In this document: positions 1 through 33,724 of the stretch, in pieces
Layout: every line of letters starts with the position of its first letter
Numbering within the stretch: position 1 is the first letter of the stretch
The notes under the pieces: model-generated
Told to the model about the DNA's origin: nothing
Seen by the model: only the letters and a program-made list of their open reading frames with translations
Database searches by the model: none
Program-made: the position numbers and the translations under genes
Source: an uncultured candidatus Porisulfidus sp.
GTDB taxonomy: Bacteria; Pseudomonadota; Gammaproteobacteria; Poriferisulfidales; Oxydemutatoraceae
Length of the DNA: 64,000 nt
Reading direction: 5' to 3'
Assembly: GCA_963693105.1 (NCBI GenBank)
Contig: OY843752.1
Coordinates: 23,315-87,314, forward strand

Positions 1-9
1 GTCCAAACA

Positions 10-1479
10 TTGCGGGAAAGATCTTACTTTGAGGACTTAAAAGAAAACCAGATTACAATCCTTATGGGTTCCAGAACATTCTTTGAGAGTTGGGATTCGA
101 ATCGTCCGAATGTAATTAATTTTATAAATATCGGCGGAGCAGACGCAAAGAAGTTTCTCATCCAGGCTATCGGGCGTGGCGTAAGGATTGAACCACTGCC
201 AGGCAAACGTCGCCGCTATGATTTTTTGCCGTCCAGCAACGAGGAAAAGATTCTCCAAGATTACCGCAATAAAGTGCATCCTCCAGAGACCCTGTTTCTC
301 TTTGCCACCAACCGCAATGCAGTTAAATTTGTCCTGGAAGGAATACAGTCTGAAAAAAGCGGTAATTTTGAAAAAATTGAAGGCTTCGAAATATCGGAAA
401 GACCAAAGATTAATGGTACAGAAATGCAATTGCTGGTGCCAAAATATAAAAATGAGGGAGACTCGACAATACGGGCAAACTTCGTGATGAGCCACGAAAC
501 TCTGAAAAGGCTCAGAACCTGGCTTGCAAAAACATCTGATTCCGTGCTCGTCGTTCGGGATAATTTGTCACCTCGGGAAATAAGCAAATTGCGTGGACTA
601 ATACAAGAAAACAGCAATATCGATATAGAACCGGGGAAAGACTACGACAACCTCGCATTTCTGCAGGATCGCCTACGATTCCACCTTTCCGAAACCAGCC
701 AGACAACTGAAGGAATGCGCGAACTAGACGATAAAGAAGACATTGTGCATTTCCGTAAAGTCCAAGTGCAACTGGATAAGCACGAAGTGAAAGATCTTGG
801 CAAGAAGATAAAGCAGGTGGCAAAAGGAAGTATTTCCAAAGAAGAAAGACGAGAGTGGGCACGCCGGTATGCAAACCAAGAAATCAACGAAGAAGAAATG
901 CTACGTCACATTGGCGGTGCCTCCGAAGATTTATTTAGACAACTGAACATCAAAAATATTTCAGAGCATTACTATGCTCCGCTCATCATCGCGAATAGAA
1001 AAGCGGATTTCATCCGGCACATTGTCCAAGAAGAAAGCGAGAGACAATTTCTCAACGACTTGGACGGCTGGTTACAAAGCAACCAACCAAAATGGGATGC
1101 GTGGATGTTCAGCAAAATTGATGAGTCTCTGGACAATATCTATATACCCTACTACGACAAGCGCGTTAACAGGTATCGAAACTTCATGCCGGATTTTATC
1201 TTCTGGATGTGTAAAGCCGATTATTACCAAATAGTTTTTGTCGATCCCAAGGGCATGGCTCACACGTCTGCCAACTACAAAATACTTGGCTACTCCAAAT
1301 TGTTTGAACACAACCAGAAATGCCGCATTTTCCGAACCAGATTCAGCCAAGCACGGAATGTAAAAGTGAAACTTGTTCTTTTCAATCAAGACGCACGACA
1401 GCAACCCGACGATCAATATCACCGCTACTGGTGCAACAGTCCAGAGGAGATATTTACAGAAAACAATCCTCGCACTTAA
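10..1479 (+). CDS. Partial (5'-truncated) SF2 helicase C-terminal region fused to a PD-(D/E)xK-like nuclease domain; Type III Res-like or other defence helicase-nuclease
   Basis: Helicase motif VI 'QAIGRGVRI' near the N-terminal end of the fragment. C-terminal 'PDFIFWM...VFVDPKG' resembles a PD...D-x-K nuclease core. Region is AT-rich (about 40% GC) in a roughly 65% GC genome. ORF runs off the window start. Confidence 0.45.
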   Translation: MRERSYFEDLKENQITILMGSRTFFESWDSNRPNVINFINIGGADAKKFLIQAIGRGVRIEPLPGKRRRYDFLPSSNEEKILQDYRNKVHPPETLFLFATNRNAVKFVLEGIQSEKSGNFEKIEGFEISERPKINGTEMQLLVPKYKNEGDSTIRANFVMSHETLKRLRTWLAKTSDSVLVVRDNLSPREISKLRGLIQENSNIDIEPGKDYDNLAFLQDRLRFHLSETSQTTEGMRELDDKEDIVHFRKVQVQLDKHEVKDLGKKIKQVAKGSISKEERREWARRYANQEINEEEMLRHIGGASEDLFRQLNIKNISEHYYAPLIIANRKADFIRHIVQEESERQFLNDLDGWLQSNQPKWDAWMFSKIDESLDNIYIPYYDKRVNRYRNFMPDFIFWMCKADYYQIVFVDPKGMAHTSANYKILGYSKLFEHNQKCRIFRTRFSQARNVKVKLVLFNQDARQQPDDQYHRYWCNSPEEIFTENNPRT

Positions 1480-1482
1480 AGC

Positions 1483-2388
1483 ATGAACCACAAAAAAAAA
1501 TTTAAGAGGGCCCATAAATCCAACGGTTGGGGTAATTTCGAACAACCGAGTGATACCCATTTTCATGAGTTAGCCAATTGCATAATGGCAATATCAACCA
1601 ATATAGCGATGCTCAATAATTCTTCTGACAGAGAACATGCTTGCCAGACCATATCTGTCCAGCTTCGCAAGTTACTTCTCGACAAAAAACCCTTAATTAA
1701 AAGGTGCTATAAAAATTCTCTTAAATTTCATCCCCTTTCTAAAGTCGCTCTAACCGATAAGCCTTTCTTTTCGGACAGTATCAAAATAAGGGATGGTGGA
1801 CACGTCGAATTACACGGAGGCCGTATTGATGGGACTTCTGCAACCCACTCACTTCTCATCAAATCATGCTCACACTCTATTGAGATTTATCCTCTACCAG
1901 GCTTGTCTTATGACGAGTACAAAAAAGAAGTTACTGTACATTCCCCTTTTAAACTTAAGAGTACCCACTTTATCGGACTAGATGAATGGCTGAACCAAAA
2001 GATCGTTTCTGTGCATGAACAGAGCATGACTTTACTCGATGCTATTAAAACAATCGCAGATAAAGAAGGGGCTCATGCAGATGAACGACCTGATATTCAC
2101 ATGGCAAGAGCCTGTATGTTTATGGGCTATAATTACTTTCACTGGATCGTAATCTTTACTGCGAGCTATCTTATAGAGAGAATATGTAGTTTTAAGTTAC
2201 ACAGCGAAACCCTTATTCGTAGCGGTCTTGATATTCATAAGATTTGTCACATTGAAAGGACTTCTTTTAGTGATAAAGCTATCAGCTACATGCCATTTGC
2301 CTTTCCTATAGGCTTCTACCTGCCAGATGGAAATCCAGCTTCACCTGATATGGATGAGTTTGATTATTCAATGAAGCCATGCCAATAG
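1483..2388 (+). CDS. Hypothetical protein (301 aa) in the AT-rich island, co-directional with the helicase-nuclease gene and only 4 nt downstream of it
   Basis: Long ORF with AT-rich codon usage distinct from the host. No motif I can assign. Gene arrangement suggests an operon with the upstream helicase-nuclease gene. Confidence 0.4.
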   Translation: MNHKKKFKRAHKSNGWGNFEQPSDTHFHELANCIMAISTNIAMLNNSSDREHACQTISVQLRKLLLDKKPLIKRCYKNSLKFHPLSKVALTDKPFFSDSIKIRDGGHVELHGGRIDGTSATHSLLIKSCSHSIEIYPLPGLSYDEYKKEVTVHSPFKLKSTHFIGLDEWLNQKIVSVHEQSMTLLDAIKTIADKEGAHADERPDIHMARACMFMGYNYFHWIVIFTASYLIERICSFKLHSETLIRSGLDIHKICHIERTSFSDKAISYMPFAFPIGFYLPDGNPASPDMDEFDYSMKPCQ

Positions 2389-2463
2389 GAAACAATCAAT
2401 CTTATTAAGACTGCTACAGGATAGTAGGCGAATGGAATCTTTGATGCATAAACAATAACAACC

Positions 2464-3381
2464 TCAAGCCCCCCCCCTCTTCTTCCGCGCCCGCGGGTGC
2501 GCTTTATCATAAACCTTCGCCAGATGCTGAAAATCCAGATGCGTATAAACCTGCGTCGTGCTGATGTCCGCATGGCCGAGCAATTCCTGCACCGCGCGCA
2601 AGTCGCCCGACGACTCCAGCAAATGACTCGCGAATGAATGGCGCAGCATGTGCGGATGCAAACGCTGCGGCAGACCGCGCCGGCGCGCGAATTGCTGCAT
2701 CCGCAGTTGCACGCCGCGCGCGCCCATGCGCCGCCCCTTGCGCGTGACAAACAACGCCGCCTCGTCGCCGGGCGCCAGTTTCGCGCGCGCTCCCAGCCAC
2801 GCGCGCACCGCATCGCAGGCATGTCTGCCGACCGGCACCTCCCTTTGCTTCAATCCCTTGCCGGTCACGCGCACAAAAGCCGCGTCCGCGTCCAGGTTGA
2901 TGTCGCCCAAATCCACCGACACCAGTTCGGACAAACGCAGCCCGGAGGAATAAGCGAGTTCAATCATCGCCAGATCGCGCACCGCCAGCGCATCACCGCC
3001 GGCGGCGGCGCCGTCGAGCAGTTGCACCATCTGATCCACGGTCAGCGTCTCGGGCAAATTCTTGTCCACGCGTGGCGGCTGAACCGTCGCCGCCGGATTG
3101 CTCGCGGCACAACCGCACTCCACGCAATAACGGAAAAACTGCCGCAACGACGACAACTCGCGCTGCAATGTCCTGCCGCGCACACCCGACAGAAAACGCC
3201 GCGACACATGGTCGCGCACATGCTCCTCGCCGACACCGCGCCATTCCACGCCCAACGTTTGCAGAAAATCAAGAAAGCGGTGGATGTCGCGCCGGTAGGC
3301 GTCTATCGTTCGCGGCGAGTAATTGCGCCCGCCGAGCAGCGTGTCGAGAAACTGCCGGCATGCCTCGCGCGGCTCCGTCAT
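2464..3381 (-). CDS. xerC: Tyrosine site-specific recombinase XerC
   Basis: Catalytic C-terminus '...[20 protein letters not shown]' with the R..HxxR..Y pattern. Conserved dapF-yigA-xerC synteny. Confidence 0.9.
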
Positions 3382-4028
3382 CCGGCGCGGTTCTCCCGGC
3401 GCGCGCCAGCCTGCAGCGCGCAGGCGATCAACTCGCCGAACTGCACCAGAAACATCGTGCCCTTGCCGGCGCTGAAACTGTCGCCGTCGGCGCTGCCCAG
3501 CGCCAGCAGCCCGAAGCGCTCGTCGTCTGCAACCAGCGGCATCACGACAGCCGACGCGGCGCGCTGCGCAAAACGGCCAAACAGCGAAAGTTTGACGGCG
3601 TTGTCGAACGGCCCGCAGTCGGGCTTGCCCGTCGCCGCCAGCGAGTGCAGCAAACTCACGGCGCCGCTGTCTTTGCCGGCGCCGTTCAGTCCTTCGTGCG
3701 GGTCGTATTTGCCAAGCAGGCGAATCACAATCTGGTTGCCGGGCAGACGCTGTCTCAATTCGGCCAGCGAGATGGCGGCCACTTCGTGCACGCTGTTCGA
3801 GGCCACCAGTCTCAGCGACAACCGGTGCAGTCCGATGCTCAGGTTCTCGTTGGTCCTGGCGATTTCAACCAGCGATTCGAGTTTATTCTGCAACGCCTCG
3901 TTTTTATTCCGCAGCAGCGCAATCTGTTTCGTGACCAGCGACGGCGGCCCCGCTTCAGACCCGCCGGAACCGCCAACCTCGCCAACCCCGCCAACCCCCG
4001 GCACGGGCTTCAACTCATCCACACTCAC
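3378..4028 (-). CDS. yigA: DUF484 (YigA-like, GAF-like) protein
   Basis: Lies between dapF and xerC as in E. coli. Overlaps xerC start by 4 nt. Coiled-coil N-terminus plus GAF-like C-terminus. Confidence 0.75.
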
Positions 4029-4911: not shown

Positions 4912-5592
4912 TCAGGCGACGGCTTCGATGCCTTTGTGCGGCAGGAAGATGCCGCAGCCGAGTTTCTGCCGGTCTCCCAGACCGCGCTGCTGCAGGCGGA
5001 TGGCGTCCTCAAACGTCAGGCCGCTGACCATCAGACTGCAAACGGCGAGGTCGCGGTCGGGCGTTTGGATGACGTGGCCGCGCCCGCTCATCATTTTGGT
5101 GGCGGCGATGCCGGCGTCGGCGAGCAGCGCCGAGGCGTGTTCGAGAAAAGCGCTCTCGCCACCGTCCGCGGGCGCCGGCAGGTGGCGTGAAAACAGGGTC
5201 GTCTCGCGGCTGAGCGGGCGCACGCCGGCGTCGCCGACGCAAACCTCGTAGCCGCCGATGTCCAGCCGCGCGCCCTCCAGCGCGCGTGCATCCGCGAACC
5301 GCTCCCGCGGCAAACGCAGGCACAAGCGCGCGCGCCTCGACAGATGAATCTCGTCGCTTCCCCGCCGCGGGCGCTCCCAGCCGTTGCCCGATTCGGCGCC
5401 GTGTATCGAGTGAACCGCCGCGCGCGGCTCGTCGTCCAGCCACGGCAAAACCCCGCCGAGCGCCCGGTAAAGCGCCCAGGCGTGATCCGCCGGCAGCAGG
5501 CGGCAGGTGATGCGGAAATTCAGGTCGGCGATGTCGCCCGGCACGCGCGGCTTGCTGCCGGCGGCGCTTTGCTCTTGCCAGTGCAGGTTCAT
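4912..5592 (-). CDS. Hypothetical protein (226 aa) with a Cas6-like glycine-rich C-terminal loop (possible RAMP/Cas6f-like RNA-binding fold)
   Basis: C-terminus 'GLGDRQKLGCGIFLPHKGI' resembles the G-rich loop of Cas6 family members (Csy4 ends 'CYGLSKGGFVPWF'). No CRISPR array or other cas genes in the window. Lies 41 nt upstream of dapF. Confidence 0.35.
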   Translation of the reverse strand: MNLHWQEQSAAGSKPRVPGDIADLNFRITCRLLPADHAWALYRALGGVLPWLDDEPRAAVHSIHGAESGNGWERPRRGSDEIHLSRRARLCLRLPRERFADARALEGARLDIGGYEVCVGDAGVRPLSRETTLFSRHLPAPADGGESAFLEHASALLADAGIAATKMMSGRGHVIQTPDRDLAVCSLMVSGLTFEDAIRLQQRGLGDRQKLGCGIFLPHKGIEAVA

Positions 5593-25925: not shown

Positions 25926-28004
25926 ATGAAGGTTACGGAACTCAAGGGAGTCGGCCCCGGTGTCGCCGCCCGCCTCGAAAAGCTTGGCCTGCATTCCATC
26001 GAGGACCTGCTGTTTCACTTTCCGCTGCGCTACCAGGACAAGACGCGGGTCGTGCCGATCGGCGGCCTGACGCCGGGGCAGCCGGCGCTGATCGAAGGCC
26101 GCGTGGAATCGGCGCAGGTCGCCTACACCGGGCGGCGCGTGCTGGTGGTGCGGGTGTCCGACCAAAGCGGCTGGCTGCAGCTGCGGTTCTTCCATTTTTC
26201 CATGGCGCAAAAAGCCGGCTTCAAGCCGGGGCAGAAACTCTACGCCTACGGCGAAGTGCGCGCCGCGCGCGCCGCGCTCGAAATCATTCATCCCGAATAC
26301 CGCCTGATTGGCGACGCCCAGTCGGCGCTCACCGAGGCGCACTATACGCCGGTCTATCCCACGACCGAGGGACTGCATCAAAAAAGTCTGCGCCGGCTGA
26401 CGCAGGCCGCCGTCGAGTGGCTCCGCAAGCCCGGCAACGAACTGGAAGAACTGCTGCCCGACGAGTGGGCGGGCCAACTGGCCGACGGCGCCGGCGCGAT
26501 TTCCACCCAGGAGGCGATTTGCCTGTTTCACAAGCCGCCCGCCGGAACCGATCTGGCGGCGCTGACCGAGGGCCGCCACCCGGCGCGCAAACGCCTCGTG
26601 TTCGAGGAGCTGCTCGCCAACATCCTGAGTCTCAAGCGGCTGCGCGCCAAACACCGCCGCTACAAGGCCGAGGCGCTGGTCTGCGAGGGCCGCCTGTTCG
26701 AGAAACTGGTGGCGGGCCTTCCGTTCACGCTGACCGGCGCCCAGAACAAGGTCATCGGCGAGATTCTCGAAGACGTGCGCGTATCCTCGCCGATGATGCG
26801 CCTGGTGCAAGGCGATGTCGGCTCGGGCAAGACGGTGGTCGCCACCGCCGCGCTGCTGCAGGCCATCGAGAGCGGCTTTCAGGCGGCGCTGATGGCGCCG
26901 ACCGAAATCCTCGCCGAGCAGCACTTCAACAACCTGCACGAATGGCTCGAACCACTGGGCGTGCGCGTGTGCGTGGTGTCGGCGCGCCAGAAAGCGCGCG
27001 TACGGCAGGCGGCCCTGAGGCAGATACGCCAGGGCCAGGCGCAACTGGTCACGGGAACGCACGCGCTGTTCCAGGAAGCGGTTGATTTCTCGCGCCTCGC
27101 GCTGATTGTCGTGGACGAGCAGCATCGTTTCGGCGTGCACCAACGGCTGCTGCTGAAAGAAAAGGGAGCGCACGGCGACTTCCAGCCGCACCAGTTGATT
27201 ATGACGGCGACCCCCATTCCCAGAAGCCTGGCGATGACGATGTACGCCGATCTCGACTACTCCGTCATTGACGCCCTGCCGCCCGGACGCAAGCGAATCA
27301 AAACCGTCGCACTGCCGGAACAACGCCGCGACGAGGTAATCGAACGCCTGCATGAATCGTGCCGCAACGGCGTGCAGGCGTACTGGGTGTGCCCGCTGAT
27401 CGAAGAATCCGAGTCGCTGCAATGCCGCGCCGCCGAGGAAAGCCACCGCTATTTGAGCGGCGTCATGCCCGGCTTCAAACTGGGTCTGATACACGGCAAC
27501 CTCGGCGGCGACGAGAAAGAGTCGGTCATGCGCGCCTTCAAGGGCGGCGAAATCAACGTGCTGGTGGCGACCACCGTCATCGAGGTGGGCGTGGACGTGC
27601 CGAACGCGACGCTGATGATCATCGACAACGCCGAGCGCCTGGGGCTGGCGCAACTCCATCAATTGCGGGGCCGCGTCGGACGCGGCGAACGGCAGAGCAC
27701 CTGCGTCCTGATTTACTCGCCGCCGCTGTCGGAAAAGGCGGCGCGGCGCATCGGCATCATGCGCAAATCCAGCGACGGCTTCGAGATCGCCGCCGAAGAC
27801 ATGCGGCTGCGCGGCCCGGGCGAGATTCTGGGAACCCGCCAGGCCGGACAGATTCATTTCAGGGTGGCCGACCTGTCGCAGGACGCCGGGCAGATTCAGC
27901 AGGTGTTGAAAATGGCCGACGATTTCGCCGGGCAATACCCGCGCCACGCCGAAAAAATGATCGAGCGGTGGCTCGGCAGGTTTTCCAGGTACGCCGAGGT
28001 GTAA
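25926..28004 (+). CDS. recG: ATP-dependent DNA helicase RecG
   Basis: Wedge domain N-terminus. Walker A 'GDVGSGKT', DEQH box 'VVDEQHRFG', motif VI 'QLRGRVGRG'. Confidence 0.9.
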   Translation: MKVTELKGVGPGVAARLEKLGLHSIEDLLFHFPLRYQDKTRVVPIGGLTPGQPALIEGRVESAQVAYTGRRVLVVRVSDQSGWLQLRFFHFSMAQKAGFKPGQKLYAYGEVRAARAALEIIHPEYRLIGDAQSALTEAHYTPVYPTTEGLHQKSLRRLTQAAVEWLRKPGNELEELLPDEWAGQLADGAGAISTQEAICLFHKPPAGTDLAALTEGRHPARKRLVFEELLANILSLKRLRAKHRRYKAEALVCEGRLFEKLVAGLPFTLTGAQNKVIGEILEDVRVSSPMMRLVQGDVGSGKTVVATAALLQAIESGFQAALMAPTEILAEQHFNNLHEWLEPLGVRVCVVSARQKARVRQAALRQIRQGQAQLVTGTHALFQEAVDFSRLALIVVDEQHRFGVHQRLLLKEKGAHGDFQPHQLIMTATPIPRSLAMTMYADLDYSVIDALPPGRKRIKTVALPEQRRDEVIERLHESCRNGVQAYWVCPLIEESESLQCRAAEESHRYLSGVMPGFKLGLIHGNLGGDEKESVMRAFKGGEINVLVATTVIEVGVDVPNATLMIIDNAERLGLAQLHQLRGRVGRGERQSTCVLIYSPPLSEKAARRIGIMRKSSDGFEIAAEDMRLRGPGEILGTRQAGQIHFRVADLSQDAGQIQQVLKMADDFAGQYPRHAEKMIERWLGRFSRYAEV

Positions 28005-28341: not shown

Positions 28342-29049
28342 TCATTTCAATATCTCCGTCAATTGCCTTACGGCCCTTTCCAGATTCTCATACAAAAGCG
28401 GTTTATAATATTTTCCCCTGTGAATCTCCTGCTTCACTTTTCTCTCACCTTCCAATAAGGTGATAATCTCAATCTTCACATCTTCAAAAAAAGACATCAG
28501 TGTATGCGTCGAGAAACTGCCCAATGTTACCTCGCTCAACTTGGAATAATCACCACCGAGTTGGCTTTCAAGCTGCACCAGTGCAAACTTCAATGCCGGA
28601 AATTGAGTTTTCAACAACCATGCATCAAAAAGTATACGTTTGAACATTGCATTTTCGGCATAGGCTTTGCACTCTATGGATAAGAGAAATTCATCTCTTT
28701 CATAAACACTGACATCTTGACTTATTTTGTAATTAATTTCTTGAAGATGATCTTTTAAGTAGTTTCTGACTTCCTCATTGGAGAGGTTCTCTACGTATTT
28801 GCGATTGATGGGAACCATGTATTTCCCTCTCGAGAAAATCAAATCATCAGGCTCTTTGCCCAGTTTTAGCCATGCTGCCATAACAAGTTTTTGAGTAATA
28901 TCCTCGACCAGTTTCCCCTTTCCCTGCCTTAGCATCCCTCCTGGCGCTCTGGTCTTTTGTCCCTGAGATTCTTCCCACATATTCTGAACGGTCTGCTTAT
29001 ATGCCTCCACTATGCCATTCAATATCTCCCTGTAACTATGATTCACCAT
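28342..29049 (-). CDS. Putative Type II restriction endonuclease (PD-ExK)
   Basis: 'YERDEFLLSIECKAY' D...E-x-K core. AT-rich. Stop/start abuts the upstream methyltransferase on the same strand. Confidence 0.5.
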   Translation of the reverse strand: MVNHSYREILNGIVEAYKQTVQNMWEESQGQKTRAPGGMLRQGKGKLVEDITQKLVMAAWLKLGKEPDDLIFSRGKYMVPINRKYVENLSNEEVRNYLKDHLQEINYKISQDVSVYERDEFLLSIECKAYAENAMFKRILFDAWLLKTQFPALKFALVQLESQLGGDYSKLSEVTLGSFSTHTLMSFFEDVKIEIITLLEGERKVKQEIHRGKYYKPLLYENLERAVRQLTEILK

Positions 29050-29052
29050 GAC

Positions 29053-30264
29053 TCAAAGTAGAATGCCTTTCAGGCGCTCCTCGGATTTCTCGCAATACTC
29101 TCTGGATATGTCAATTCCGAGATAATGCCTTCCCGTCATCTTGGAAACGGCGCAAGTCGTTCCGACGCCCGCAAACGGATCCAGAACCACGTCTTCGCGA
29201 TAACTGAACAGTTGAAGTACGCGCCGCGCTAGCTCCTCCGGAAACATCGCGGGGTGGCCGAATTTTTTCATCCTGCGCTCCGGCGCAATCGCCCACTTGC
29301 CGTAAACCCACTTTTTGAAATCATCGCCGACGATGTCTATTTTTTCCCGATCGCCGGCCTTCTTGAGAGAACCCTTGCAGAAAACCTCGATAAATTCCCA
29401 TGAGTATTTGAGATACGGGTTGCTGGGACTCTTCCAACTGCCCCACGCCGTGTACTTGCAATTGTAATTGTTTTTCTCCCACACAATTTCGCCTTTCCAG
29501 ATCATCTTGCGATTGATAAAGTAATTGCCGATGATGTGATGGCTGGGAATATAGTCTGAATAAAGCGGCTGGATATTGACCACGATCCTGCCGCCGTATT
29601 TCAACACACGGATGCACTCATCAAATACGGCAAACAATTTGTCGAAATAACTCTGCCAATAATGGTCGTCCTGCGCCTGATCACCGTACTCCAGCCCGAA
29701 GTTGTACGGCGGGGAAGTGAACACCAAGTCCACGCAATTGTCCGGCAATTTCTTCAGCTCCTCCGCACTGTCGCCACAGAGTATTCTGTCAAGAAACCCG
29801 GGTGGCAACTCATTGTTCTCTTCACAAAATTCGTTGTTTCTTGCGTAATAATACTTGCCCCGGTTCTCTTCTTTTTTTGCCCGGTTCTTTACCTTCCGCT
29901 CTTCGTTATAGCCCACAAAACGCCGTTTGCCGGAATGAAGACCGTAACTGCCGATGGATTCGATTTCCTCACAAACCTGATGCAACAGCGAAGGAGGCTC
30001 TCCGCAGATTTCATGCACTGCGGCTCTCATCGCAACCGTGTCAATCTCCCGTAGCCGGATATGAACCGTTTTCCCTCTCGCAATAATCTGCACCTCATCA
30101 GATCGAAAGCGGCTGTTGAAATCATCAATCTTCCCGGAAACATCCGCCGTAACCGGAGATGGAACAGCGAATGAGAGTTCTTTATAGGACGGTGTTTCTT
30201 CTTGCTGCATTGAATTGAGCGGCTGGCAGGTAACTGCCGCATCCCCTCTGTGGATTCTACACAA
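29053..30264 (-). CDS. DNA methyltransferase, beta-class amino-MTase (N4-cytosine or N6-adenine)
   Basis: Motif IV 'DLVFTSPPY' precedes motif I 'VLDPFAGVGTT' (beta permutation). AT-rich island. The true start may be the internal Met about 17 codons in. Confidence 0.75.
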   Translation of the reverse strand: MCRIHRGDAAVTCQPLNSMQQEETPSYKELSFAVPSPVTADVSGKIDDFNSRFRSDEVQIIARGKTVHIRLREIDTVAMRAAVHEICGEPPSLLHQVCEEIESIGSYGLHSGKRRFVGYNEERKVKNRAKKEENRGKYYYARNNEFCEENNELPPGFLDRILCGDSAEELKKLPDNCVDLVFTSPPYNFGLEYGDQAQDDHYWQSYFDKLFAVFDECIRVLKYGGRIVVNIQPLYSDYIPSHHIIGNYFINRKMIWKGEIVWEKNNYNCKYTAWGSWKSPSNPYLKYSWEFIEVFCKGSLKKAGDREKIDIVGDDFKKWVYGKWAIAPERRMKKFGHPAMFPEELARRVLQLFSYREDVVLDPFAGVGTTCAVSKMTGRHYLGIDISREYCEKSEERLKGILL

Positions 30265-31933: not shown

Positions 31934-32212
31934 TTACCCGTCGCCGCGCCCGTCATAATAGTCGTCCTTTCTCTTGAGGAACCAGCCCAGCGCCAGTGCC
32001 ACGACGATCAGCACGACACAGCTGGCGAAACCGAACCAGGCATAAAAGCCGAAACCAAAATCGGAGAAGCCGCCGACCAGAAACTCCAGCAGAACAATCA
32101 GGACGACACCTGCTCCAATCGCAGGCAGCGGAGGCTTTAATCCCACGATGTATCTCCCACCCCAATCGCGGGCAGCGGAGGTTTTAATCCCACGATGTAT
32201 CTCCCACCCCAA
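31934..32212 (-). pseudogene. Small membrane-protein gene between two MrpD-like genes, apparently frame-disrupted by the 47-bp tandem repeat
   Basis: The listed 92-aa ORF (TTG start inside the repeat) has a hydrophobic C-terminal two-thirds. A short ATG-initiated ORF 'MNWKPPLPAIGVGDTSWD*' overlaps the upstream gene stop (ATGA) and shares 'KPPLPAIG' with it in another frame. Confidence 0.3.
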
Positions 32213-32231
32213 TCGCGGGCAGCGGAGGTTT
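32124..32231. repeat. Tandem direct repeat, 47-bp unit x 2.3 copies (1 mismatch)
   Basis: Copy 1 at 32124-32170 and copy 2 at 32171-32217, 'ggcagcggagg(c/t)tttaatcccacgatgtatctcccaccccaatcgcg'. Partial third copy at 32218-32231. Confidence 0.85.
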
Positions 32232-32236
32232 CCAGT

Positions 32237-33724
32237 TCATGGCGCGTCTCCGGCGTTGCCGGCGGCGAAACCCGGAGCCCCGGCGATGAACCCGGCAATG
32301 CTGTCCACCGCGAAAAACAGCACGGCGCACATCAGCGCCGGCAACAGCATCGCAATCAGCATCGCCGCCGGCGCCTCGTTGCGCGCCACGGGAGCCGGCG
32401 CGGCCTGCGTGAAGAAAGCGCGGTAAATCACCGGCACGAGGTAGGCCGCGCTCAATACGCTGCCCGCGACCAGCACCGCCGCGGGAAGATACCCGCCGAC
32501 CGCGACCGAACCTTCGAGCAGAAACCACTTGCTGCTGAAACCGGCCAGCGGCGGCAAACCGATGATTACAAGCGAGCCGACGGTGAACAATCCCATCGTC
32601 CACGGCATGGTGCGGCCGATTCCGCCCAGTTCATCCAGCCGGGTTTTGCCGCTCGCCGTCTGAATAGCGCCCGCCGCGAAAAACAGCGTGATCTTGCCGA
32701 AGCCGTGCGCCAGCAGATGCAGCACCGCGCCCAGCAGCGCCGCCGGTTTCAGCAGCGCGGCGCCGAGAAGAATATAAGAAAGCTGGCTGACGGTCGAATA
32801 GGCGAGCAGTTTCTTCAGACTGCTCTGCCGCAGCGCGATGATCGAGGCGGCGATGATGGTAAAAGAGGCGATGTACACAAGCCATTCACCGGCGCCGGCG
32901 CCGGCCAGCAGATCAACGCCGAAAATATAGAGGATGACCTTGACTATCGTGAAGACACCGGCCTTGACCACGGCAACCGCGTGCAGCAGCGCGCTGACCG
33001 GCACCGGCGCGACCATCGCCCGCGGCAGCCAGCAGTGCAGCGGCATCACCGCGGCTTTCGAGGCGCCGAAGACGACCAGCAGCAGCAGCCATTTGACCTG
33101 CGCGTCCTCAAGGTGTCCGTCCAGTATGCCGCCGGACACGAAATCCAACGTCCCCGCGGCGTGATAAATCCACACCAGCGCGGCCAGCAGCAACACCGTC
33201 GAGGAACCGACCAGAATGCCCAGATAAATCCTGCCCGCCGACAGCGCCTCGCGGCTCTTGCCGTGCGTCACCAGCGGATACGTGCAAAGCGTCAGCACCT
33301 CGTAGAATATGAACAGCGTCAGCAGGTTGCCGGCGAACGCGACCGCCAGGGCGCAGCCGATGGCCAGGTTGTAATACACCAGAAACGACGTCATCCCGGG
33401 CACGCGGTTCTGGTAGAGATACGCCAGCGAATACAGCATGCTGACCGGCCACAGCAAACACACCAGGCCGGCGAAAATCAGGCCCACCGGCTCCGGCTCG
33501 AATGCGATGCCGGCGCCGGGCACGATTTCCGTCAGTTGCAGCGTCACCGGCGCGTCCGCCAGCATCACCAGCGCCGCCAGTGAAACAAAAGGCGCCAGCA
33601 GGTTCAGCGTGTCCCTCACCACGGGCATGCCGTGGAACAGCACCGTCAGCGCGGCCAGCACGAAAGGACTCGCCATGCACGCAATCAGCAGGGTCTCGTT
33701 CGTCATTGTGATCATCATCGTCAT
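32237..33724 (-). CDS. Mrp antiporter-like subunit D/NuoN family, paralogue 2
   Basis: Polytopic, conserved 'LAYS(T/S)V(S/A)Q' region. The overlapping plus/minus Arg-rich ORFs are rejected. Confidence 0.75.
   Translation of the reverse strand: MTMMITMTNETLLIACMASPFVLAALTVLFHGMPVVRDTLNLLAPFVSLAALVMLADAPVTLQLTEIVPGAGIAFEPEPVGLIFAGLVCLLWPVSMLYSLAYLYQNRVPGMTSFLVYYNLAIGCALAVAFAGNLLTLFIFYEVLTLCTYPLVTHGKSREALSAGRIYLGILVGSSTVLLLAALVWIYHAAGTLDFVSGGILDGHLEDAQVKWLLLLVVFGASKAAVMPLHCWLPRAMVAPVPVSALLHAVAVVKAGVFTIVKVILYIFGVDLLAGAGAGEWLVYIASFTIIAASIIALRQSSLKKLLAYSTVSQLSYILLGAALLKPAALLGAVLHLLAHGFGKITLFFAAGAIQTASGKTRLDELGGIGRTMPWTMGLFTVGSLVIIGLPPLAGFSSKWFLLEGSVAVGGYLPAAVLVAGSVLSAAYLVPVIYRAFFTQAAPAPVARNEAPAAMLIAMLLPALMCAVLFFAVDSIAGFIAGAPGFAAGNAGDAP

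What the first reader, a model, noticed from the sequence alone, without database searches (positions are those of the whole stretch)
1..2463. AT-rich island abutting xerC encodes a helicase-nuclease fusion plus a 301-aa unknown protein: candidate novel defence module
Bases 1-2440 are far more AT-rich than the rest of the window. The composition changes abruptly at the poly-C tract next to the xerC stop. The partial ORF carries SF2 helicase motif VI (QAIGRGVRI) followed by a long C-terminal region. That region ends in a PD...(D)xK-like motif (PDFIFWM...VFVDPKG). This architecture is typical of Type III Res and several helicase-nuclease immunity proteins. No Mod-like methyltransferase follows. 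The co-oriented gene 4 nt downstream (1483-2388) has no recognisable family. The pair may be an uncharacterised two-gene anti-phage system acquired horizontally.
Basis: partly seen in the sequence, partly recalled or inferred. Interest (0 to 1): 0.6.

Follow-up and report, generated by a model that had tools for sequence, protein, structure and literature searches.

The report
Type III restriction subunit plus orphan gene
The AT-rich block is the visible edge of a horizontally acquired defence island next to xerC: it holds the tail of a divergent but ordinary Type III restriction-enzyme gene, whose methylase partner very probably lies just off the window, plus an unrelated 301-aa gene of an uncharacterised family, so it is not a new two-gene system.

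Summary
Bases 1-2463 have 41.6% GC against 63.1% for the rest of the window. The switch falls within about 10 nt of the xerC stop. The helicase motif VI and the PD...DxK motif are present.

The partial ORF (1-1479) is the C-terminal 492 codons of a roughly 850-990 aa ResIII helicase with a "YagJ" PD-(D/E)xK nuclease. All six homologous loci with upstream sequence carry a co-oriented Type III Mod methyltransferase upstream (PADLOC MTase_III, E down to 1e-195). In Type III operons mod precedes res, so the missing Mod should lie left of base 1, which I could not retrieve.

The 301-aa gene (1483-2388) is real and conserved. It belongs to a family of 309 representative clusters with no Pfam, PADLOC, NCBIfam or PDB match. 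None of the relatives I examined sits beside such a helicase. Its neighbours are not conserved, but its closest relatives lie in defence islands. It is best read as an independent passenger gene.

Relatives carry Cas9-Cas1-Cas2, or Nif11-hslVU, at the same xerC flank, so this flank is a variable defence hot spot.

Verdict: new member of a known kind, with modest interest.

The parts
1..1479 (+). 3' part (492 codons plus stop) of a Type III-like res gene. It covers the end of the SF2 helicase domain, a helical middle region and the C-terminal 'YagJ' PD-(D/E)xK nuclease. The 5' part runs off the left edge of the window.
   Evidence: The frame is open from base 1. There are 594 homologues, the best at 52% identity; full-length or near-full-length ones are about 850-990 aa and carry ResIII/DEAD + PF27151 YagJ. 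PADLOC REase_III scores 4.9e-9 on residues 7-81. The AF2 model has pLDDT above 90 for residues 120-489.
163..189 (+). Helicase motif VI (QAIGRGVRI, residues 55-63).
   Evidence: Q55, G58, R59, G60 and R62 are 95-96% conserved in 121 aligned sequences.
1039..1251 (+). PD-(D/E)xK nuclease core: E347 (1039-1041), P397-D398 (1189-1194) and D415-P416-K417 (1243-1251).
   Evidence: E347, D398, D415, P416 and K417 are invariant in 77 aligned sequences, and P397 is nearly invariant. The predicted secondary structure fits the restriction-endonuclease core: helix 345-360 (E347), strands 367-372, 382-386, 391-395, 399-405 (after PD) and 408-415 (ending at DPK), helix 424-435, strand 453-461. E. coli YagJ matches only this core.
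1483..2388 (+). 301-aa gene of an uncharacterised family ('p301'), 3 nt after the res stop. It is probably a passenger gene co-transcribed with res.
   Evidence: Four full-length relatives show 42-47% identity. A profile search finds 309 representative clusters, 79 of them at E<=1e-10. H198 is invariant in the motif [IV]A[ND]KEGAHxD, and R62, F156, W169 and Y229 are nearly invariant. There is no Pfam, PADLOC, NCBIfam or PDB match. Eleven of 90 members match PHROG 7805, whose function is unknown.
2389..2463 (.). 75-nt junction (GC 0.35) between the converging p301 and xerC genes. This is the right-hand boundary of the island.
   Evidence: Homology with relatives' xerC ends at window 2473 (86% identity, L053-55) and 2482 (75%, L056). 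The downstream sequences are unrelated.
2464..3381 (-). xerC, a native flank and not part of the island. It is the last gene of the conserved dapF-DUF484-xerC block.
   Evidence: Phage_integrase scores 7e-48. Synteny with L056 is conserved.

Best explanation
Bases 1-2463 are the right-hand end of a horizontally acquired, low-GC defence island. It is inserted in the variable xerC 3' flank of a 63%-GC genome that, from syntenic dsr genes in relative L056, looks like a sulfur-oxidising proteobacterium.

The partial ORF is the Res subunit of a Type III restriction-modification system of a divergent subfamily. This subfamily has a ResIII SF2 ATPase followed by a 'YagJ'-type PD-(D/E)xK nuclease.

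Inferred from the EcoP15I paradigm (PMC4490356, PMC4005696, PMC11142916, PMC3874151): a Mod dimer encoded upstream, off the window, recognises a short asymmetric site and methylates it. Res binds the Mod dimer and uses ATP to switch into sliding along DNA. Its C-terminal nuclease (E347/D398/D415/K417) cuts unmodified DNA when two complexes at inverted sites meet.

The 301-aa gene is not a partner of this enzyme. It is a stand-alone passenger gene of an uncharacterised family, placed 3 nt after res and probably co-transcribed with it. Other passenger cassettes ride inside or beside sister operons in the same way. My committed guess is a self-contained enzyme-type immunity or toxin effector that uses the invariant His198 together with Arg62/Lys63/Glu195. 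This step is inferred, not shown.
For: - Island: GC 0.416 against 0.631. The homology breakpoint lies at the xerC stop. The same flank holds Cas9-Cas1-Cas2 in L053-55 and Nif11-hslVU in L056.
- Res identity: 594 homologues, and full-length ones carry ResIII/DEAD plus PF27151. PADLOC REase_III scores 1.3e-20 on a full-length homologue. Motif VI and the nuclease triad are intact and invariant. The predicted secondary structure fits the PD-(D/E)xK core.
- Mod upstream in 6 of 6 loci: L001, L002, L007, L058 (metagenomic or MAG), the Rhodothermus marinus plasmid NC_015970 and the Athalassotoga plasmid AP019553. PADLOC MTase_III PDLC03638 scores 1.6e-150 and 3.9e-195 (L002 and L001). Pfam N6_N4_Mtase or the record's own annotation supports the others.
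- Passenger habit of the subfamily: 2x AAA_15 pairs (L001), SMODS+Cap15 CBASS (L009) and MNT+HEPN (L058) between mod and res, and AbiEi/Eii after res (L002).
- p301 independence: the four closest relatives lie after an AAA_15 ATPase (L003), after type I HsdS + Abi_C and before HicB (L006), or between a PpkA-like kinase and an AAA/nSTAND3 ATPase (L005). None lies by a YagJ helicase. Neighbours in the 27 loci analysed share no family.
Against: - The window's own upstream DNA was not retrievable, so neither Mod nor the Res N-terminus is seen for this locus.
- No sequence similarity to solved Type III Res (EcoP15I) was detectable. Foldseek against the PDB found no nuclease match. PADLOC REase_III covers only the helicase motifs.
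- The same 1.83-Mb contig holds a paralogue (P0008) that lacks the helicase core, so decayed copies exist in this genome.
- The 3-nt spacing and similar low GC of res and p301 leave room for a lineage-specific functional link.
- The p301 structure model is poor (pLDDT 57.7), so its mechanism is a guess.
Confidence: 0.72

Rival explanations
1. One reading: the helicase-nuclease and the 301-aa protein form a new Mod-less two-gene anti-phage system.
For: The genes are co-oriented with a 3-nt gap, and both are low-GC. p301 has no known family. PADLOC does not recognise the C-terminal two thirds of the helicase protein.
Against: The pair is not seen in any other locus. Six of 6 helicase homologues with upstream sequence pair with a Type III Mod, and their downstream genes all differ. 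None of the four closest p301 relatives is next to such a helicase, and the neighbours of the 27 relatives' loci analysed share no family.
Confidence: 0.07
2. The res gene is an orphan or decaying remnant: its Mod is lost or its 5' part is disrupted. The visible ORF would then no longer be part of a working R-M system.
For: A paralogue on the same contig (P0008) has lost the helicase core. Res genes of this family are often split in other genomes: L007, L010 by IS256, and L058 by a 486-aa ORF.
Against: The frame is open for 492 codons. All 19 invariant residues of the 77-sequence alignment are present. At positions conserved at 85% or more, the only departures from the majority residue are three conservative ones (V254, V342, D355), which argues for purifying selection. 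An active Res without Mod would be lethal, so an intact nuclease argues for an intact Mod.
Confidence: 0.13
3. p301 is a lineage-specific accessory of R-M systems, for example a regulator or a back-up effector that senses anti-restriction, rather than an autonomous gene.
For: Here it directly follows res. In L006 its relative lies in a type I R-M neighbourhood, after HsdS and Abi_C. This is analogous to PrrC inside the EcoprrI hsd locus (established knowledge).
Against: The other close relatives (L003, L005) and most of the 27 relatives' loci analysed show no adjacent R-M gene. Neighbours include housekeeping genes.
Confidence: 0.08

Closest known systems
Type III restriction-modification systems (EcoP15I/EcoP1I paradigm; PMC4490356, PMC3874151)
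   Same: The gene order is mod then res in all six homologous loci. Mod is an N6_N4 methyltransferase recognised by PADLOC MTase_III. Res has an N-terminal ResIII SF2 ATPase with motif VI and a C-terminal PD-(D/E)xK nuclease.
   Different: There is no detectable sequence similarity to solved Res chains. The nuclease is of the 'YagJ' (PF27151) type. Mod is long (825-899 aa in the two plasmid loci and L058). Passenger cassettes often sit between mod and res. For the window itself, Mod and the Res N-terminus are unseen.
E. coli K-12 YagJ (b0276, CP4-6 prophage), namesake of Pfam PF27151
   Same: It shares the nuclease core: RPDFLFF...VDLVDPH aligns with MPDFIFW...VFVDPK (BLASTP E 8e-4).
   Different: YagJ is a 243-aa stand-alone protein beside IS1C with no helicase. 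It has His in place of the catalytic Lys. Its function is unknown.
Passenger defence genes embedded in R-M loci (e.g. PrrC in the type Ic EcoprrI locus; established knowledge)
   Same: An unrelated small gene rides in or next to an R-M operon, as p301 does here. Sister loci carry CBASS, MNT/HEPN, AAA_15 pairs and AbiE in the same way.
   Different: No functional link between p301 and the R-M has been shown. p301 has no similarity to PrrC, HEPN or Abi_C.
PHROG 7805 (phage protein family, function unknown)
   Same: Eleven of 90 members of the p301 family match it, with best E 3.3e-17.
   Different: The window protein itself does not reach the threshold. No relative was found in the GenBank phage collection (three family members queried) or in a pattern scan of IMG/VR contigs.

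Membership tests
Type III R-M, Res subunit | SF2 helicase-like ATPase (ResIII, motifs I-VI) | tested here: met
   Motif VI QxxGRGxR lies at residues 55-62, and PADLOC REase_III scores 4.9e-9 on residues 7-81. The full-length homologue in L002 scores Pfam ResIII 1.2e-13 and REase_III 1.3e-20. Motifs I-V of the window's own copy lie off the left edge.
Type III R-M, Res subunit | C-terminal PD-(D/E)xK endonuclease | tested here: met
   E347, D398 and D415-P416-K417 are invariant in 77 aligned sequences, and P397 is nearly invariant. The predicted alpha-beta-beta-beta-alpha-beta layout fits. Fold-level confirmation failed, as Foldseek against the PDB found no significant hit.
Type III R-M, Res subunit | Partner mod gene (N6_N4 methyltransferase) immediately upstream in the same operon | not testable with these tools
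   The window starts inside res, and the source contig could not be fetched. By proxy, 6 of 6 homologous loci have it.
Type III R-M, Res subunit | Sequence similarity to biochemically characterised Res (EcoP15I, in the PDB) | tested here: not met
   phmmer with a 981-aa homologue and hmmsearch with the 77-sequence profile found no PDB relative at E<=1. This is therefore a divergent subfamily.
Pfam PF27151 (YagJ domain) | Match to the family model | tested here: met
   This is indirect. The local Pfam copy lacks the model. Homologues aligning over 98-99% of the fragment at E down to 1e-156 carry precomputed PF27151. There is a weak direct match to E. coli YagJ.
Proposed helicase + 301-aa two-gene module | Conserved co-occurrence of the two genes | tested here: not met
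   None of 8 helicase loci has a p301 relative. tblastn with p301 found none in L001 or L002; the others were judged from gene tables. Four of 4 close p301 loci lack the helicase. Flanking genes in the 27 p301-family loci analysed share no family.
Known defence proteins (PADLOC-DB 2.0) for p301 | HMM match | tested here: not met
   There are no hits for the window protein. Among 90 family members there is one marginal CARF hit, at E 0.0098.
HEPN / Abi_C RNases for p301 | Rx4-6H motif and profile similarity | tested here: not met
   The conserved motif is A[ND]KEGAH, with Ala where Arg would be, and the conserved Arg62 lies 136 residues away. hhalign against an Abi_C protein gives probability 0.04. 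No Pfam HEPN family is hit.

The most novel reading that the evidence does not exclude
The 301-aa protein may represent a new stand-alone anti-phage or abortive-infection family. The family has 309 representative clusters and a roughly 180-aa core with an LRKLL helix and an invariant [IV]A[ND]KEGAHxD loop. It has no Pfam, PADLOC, NCBIfam or PDB relative. It travels as a passenger in defence islands and R-M operons.

Separately, the YagJ-type Type III R-M subfamily may act as a preferred 'carrier' operon that hosts other defence cassettes between mod and res.
Probability: 0.3. Interest if true: 0.45.

Novelty: new member of a known kind. Interest (0 to 1): 0.25.

Why it matters
The main value is corrective. 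An apparently Mod-less helicase-nuclease at a window edge is the 3' half of a Type III R-M operon, so it should not be counted as a new system.

Three smaller points may be useful:
- (1) The xerC 3' flank is a defence hot spot in this lineage, holding Type III R-M here and Cas9 in a close relative.
- (2) This Res subfamily is poorly covered by current defence HMMs. It often carries passenger cassettes (CBASS, MNT/HEPN, AAA_15 pairs, AbiE), which can confuse automated system calling.
- (3) The p301 family is a cheap, testable candidate for a single-gene defence or toxin function.

Tried and rejected
- Retrieving the upstream DNA of the source contig (1,833,960 bp, NCBI+ENA) failed by four routes. 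Exact-protein look-ups of p301, of the paralogue P0008 and of XerC were not on record. The scan of GTDB representative genomes found only a 49%-identity Arenicellales locus. An exact 36-mer scan of the JGI metagenomes found nothing.
- The HEPN/Abi idea for p301 was rejected.
- A phage origin for p301 found no support. There was no tblastn hit in GenBank phages with three family members, and no IMG/VR locus. Only the PHROG 7805 match remains.
- No plasmid relative of p301 was found.
- A conserved partner for p301 was sought and not found. All-against-all BLAST of neighbours in 27 loci linked only a few pairs of loci, apart from the near-duplicate contigs L048 and L049.
- A literature search for YagJ returned nothing functional.
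- Promoter and terminator scans of 1-3600 did not exceed the shuffled expectation. No tRNA or att-like feature lies at the junction.
Full report
**1. The observation**

The first 2463 bases have 41.6% GC against 63.1% for the remaining 61.5 kb. No other 2.4-kb window falls below 49%. Third-position GC is 0.47 and 0.37 in the two island genes against 0.77 in xerC.

The change falls at the xerC stop codon (2464-2466, minus strand). The C9 run at 2471-2479 lies inside xerC and encodes its C-terminal ...RGGA.

Frame 1 is open from base 1 to the TAA at 1477-1479, giving 492 codons. The 301-codon ORF starts at 1483, 3 nt later.

QAIGRGVRI is residues 55-63 and PDFIFWM...VFVDPKG is residues 397-418. 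Both are highly conserved: E347, D398, D415, P416 and K417 are invariant in 77 aligned sequences and P397 is nearly invariant, and the motif VI residues are 95-96% conserved in 121.

**2. What the partial ORF is**

The local Pfam copy gives no hit. PADLOC matches residues 7-81 to REase_III at 4.9e-9.

In the 5.8-billion-protein collection there are 594 homologues, the best at 52% identity. Full-length or near-full-length ones are about 850-990 aa. They carry ResIII/DEAD at the N-terminus and the newer Pfam family PF27151 'YagJ' over the part seen in the window.

The AlphaFold model built from 77 sequences is confident (pLDDT above 90) from residue 120 to 489. Around the invariant residues it shows helix 345-360 (E347), a strand beginning after P397-D398, a hairpin strand ending at D415-P416-K417, helix 424-435 and strand 453-461. 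This is the canonical alpha-beta-beta-beta-alpha-beta core of PD-(D/E)xK nucleases.

E. coli K-12 YagJ gave the Pfam family its name. It is a 243-aa stand-alone protein beside IS1C, and it aligns only with this core.

Foldseek against the PDB and sequence or profile searches of the PDB found nothing significant. The nuclease assignment therefore rests on motif invariance and predicted topology. The subfamily is remote from EcoP15I Res.

**3. Is there a Mod?**

The window begins inside the gene. I could not obtain the source contig, a 1,833,960-bp NCBI/ENA record.

I therefore examined every homologous locus for which upstream DNA was available. All six have a co-oriented N6_N4 methyltransferase upstream:

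| Locus | Arrangement |
|---|---|
| L001 | Mod split 203+633 aa (PADLOC MTase_III 3.9e-195), then two AAA_15 pairs, then Res |
| L002 (Arenicellales MAG) | Mod split 462+348 aa (MTase_III 1.6e-150) directly before a 981-aa Res |
| L007 | Mod 482 aa, then Res split in two |
| L058 | Mod 897 aa, MNT+HEPN pair, then Res split by a 486-aa ORF |
| Rhodothermus marinus plasmid NC_015970 | Mod 899 aa, SMODS + Cap15 (a minimal CBASS), then Res 989 aa |
| Athalassotoga plasmid AP019553 | Mod 825 aa, then Res interrupted by IS256 |

In Type III operons mod precedes res (PMC3874151).

It remains untested for this genome only because of the window edge.

The window copy keeps every invariant residue. At positions conserved at 85% or more, it departs from the majority residue at only three, all conservatively. 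An intact nuclease without its methylase would be self-destructive. This argues that Mod is present.

**4. The 301-aa gene**

It is a real, conserved gene. Four full-length relatives share 42-47% identity.

A profile of these against 1.84 billion cluster representatives finds 309 proteins at E<=1e-3 and 79 at E<=1e-10. Many are 180-200 aa proteins that match as two separate stretches, skipping roughly residues 80-125 of p301, and they end soon after residue 235.

The core has the following conserved features:
- a helix with (S/A)VxLRKLL, where R62 is present in 88 of 90 members
- HPL, LPG, F156, and W169-L-x-Q
- an invariant His198 in [IV]A[ND]KEGAHxD
- Y229

No member matches Pfam, NCBIfam or PADLOC meaningfully, and there is no PDB relative. 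Eleven of 90 members match PHROG 7805, of unknown function.

The structure model is poor: pLDDT 57.7 from only six sequences. It gave no fold match. The motif is not an Rx4-6H HEPN motif, and hhalign against an Abi_C protein is null.

**5. Is p301 a partner of the helicase?**

No.

The gene after res differs in every homologous locus:
- CN_hydrolase on the other strand in L001
- AbiEi/AbiEii in L002
- EF-P in L007
- Pup ligase in L008
- GIY-YIG in L009
- a transposase in L010
- an oxidoreductase in L058

The four closest p301 relatives sit in these contexts, and none is near a YagJ helicase:
- after an AAA_15 ATPase, in a contig that also carries a Schlafen/AlbA_2 protein (L003/L004)
- between a PpkA-like kinase and an AAA/nSTAND3 ATPase (L005)
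- after type I HsdS + Abi_C and before HicB (L006)

Forty-two further loci of remote relatives were found. In the 27 loci I analysed (these close relatives plus the longer remote ones), flanking genes share no family by BLAST.

Pfam and PADLOC scans of 80 neighbour proteins give a mixture:
- housekeeping genes: RNase E/G, carbamoyl-phosphate synthase, Hsp70
- integrases
- defence proteins: IetA, PDC-S13, PDC-S18, type I S, AAA_15, Abi_C, HepT, mad3, PD-T4-6

The family therefore behaves as an autonomous gene that is often, but not always, found in variable or defence regions. Here it most likely rides as a passenger at the 3' end of the res transcript. Sister operons carry CBASS, MNT/HEPN, AAA_15 pairs and AbiE in the same way. 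Its biochemical role is not established. An enzyme-type effector using His198, Arg62, Lys63 and Glu195 is my best guess.

**6. The insertion site**

The block TauD-like / Cas6 / dapF / DUF484 / xerC (window 6679 down to 2464, minus strand) is syntenic with L056, at 75-88% nucleotide identity. In L056, xerC is followed by Nif11, hslV and hslU.

In the closest relatives (L053-55, 86% identity over xerC), xerC is followed by Cas9-Cas1-Cas2 at 52-59% GC.

Homology with the window ends at 2473-2482, a few bases from the xerC stop, and the downstream sequences are unrelated.

The xerC 3' flank is thus a variable defence hot spot, and the low-GC block is an acquisition. No integrase, tRNA or repeat marks the visible boundary. 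The left boundary is off the window.

**7. Verdict**

The helicase-nuclease is a new member of a known kind: the Res subunit of a Type III R-M of the YagJ-nuclease subfamily. My confidence in this reading is about 0.7. The main residual doubt is that this particular copy could be an orphan or decaying remnant, because a paralogue lacking the helicase core exists on the same contig.

The novel two-gene module is not supported.

The only open novelty is the p301 family itself, an uncharacterised, moderately widespread protein with defence-island associations. Overall interest is modest.

Noticed in passing
window 28342-30264 (minus strand): A second low-GC patch (0.38-0.49 against 0.63) next to recG (25926-28004). 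It holds a 403-aa N6_N4 DNA methyltransferase (29053-30264, Pfam 2.5e-40) followed by a 235-aa ORF with no Pfam hit (28342-29049). This is probably a small type II R-M insertion.
   Followed up: partly
window 4912-5592 (minus strand): A solitary Cas6 gene (Pfam Cas6 5.2e-56) lies between a TauD-like gene and dapF. The same arrangement is conserved in relative L056. No CRISPR-like repeat array occurs anywhere in the 64 kb.
   Followed up: partly
L001 5135-9879; L009 4078-5531; L058 4376-5103: In sister Type III loci, unrelated defence or TA cassettes sit between mod and res. L001 has two AAA_15 ATPase + small-protein pairs, the Rhodothermus plasmid has SMODS + Cap15 (a minimal CBASS), and L058 has an MNT + HEPN pair. 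L002 has AbiEi/AbiEii just after res.
   Followed up: partly
P0008 (same 1,833,960-bp contig as the window, outside the window): A 500-aa paralogue shares 56% identity with the window fragment. It joins a short N-terminal segment (YDYQTDALQ...) directly to the post-helicase region, so it lacks the helicase core. It looks like a decayed second copy of the same Res family.
   Followed up: partly
L053-L055 (xerC flank of the closest relatives), L056: The same xerC 3' flank carries Cas9-Cas1-Cas2, plus DUF4325/PIN further on, in relatives with 86%-identical xerC. In a more distant relative it carries Nif11-hslVU. In L053-55, xerC is 356 aa with an internal insertion, and the upstream ORF hits the 'Proteasome' (HslV-type) Pfam family, which suggests a rearrangement.
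   Followed up: partly
L007 7211-10220; L010 4231-8515; L058 5103-10079: Res genes of this subfamily are frequently split. L007 has a frameshift or overlap, L010 has an IS256 insertion, and L058 has an inserted 486-aa ORF with no Pfam hit.
   Followed up: no
window 32115-32255: Three tandem copies of a 47-nt unit, with identities to the first copy of 100%, 96% and 68%. The nature of this repeat was not examined.
   Followed up: no
L057 5501-6232 (E. coli K-12 yagJ, CP4-6 prophage): YagJ lies directly beside IS1C. It matches only the nuclease core of the Res family, with His in place of the catalytic Lys (PDF...VDPH). It may be a degenerate or stand-alone relative of this nuclease domain.
   Followed up: partly
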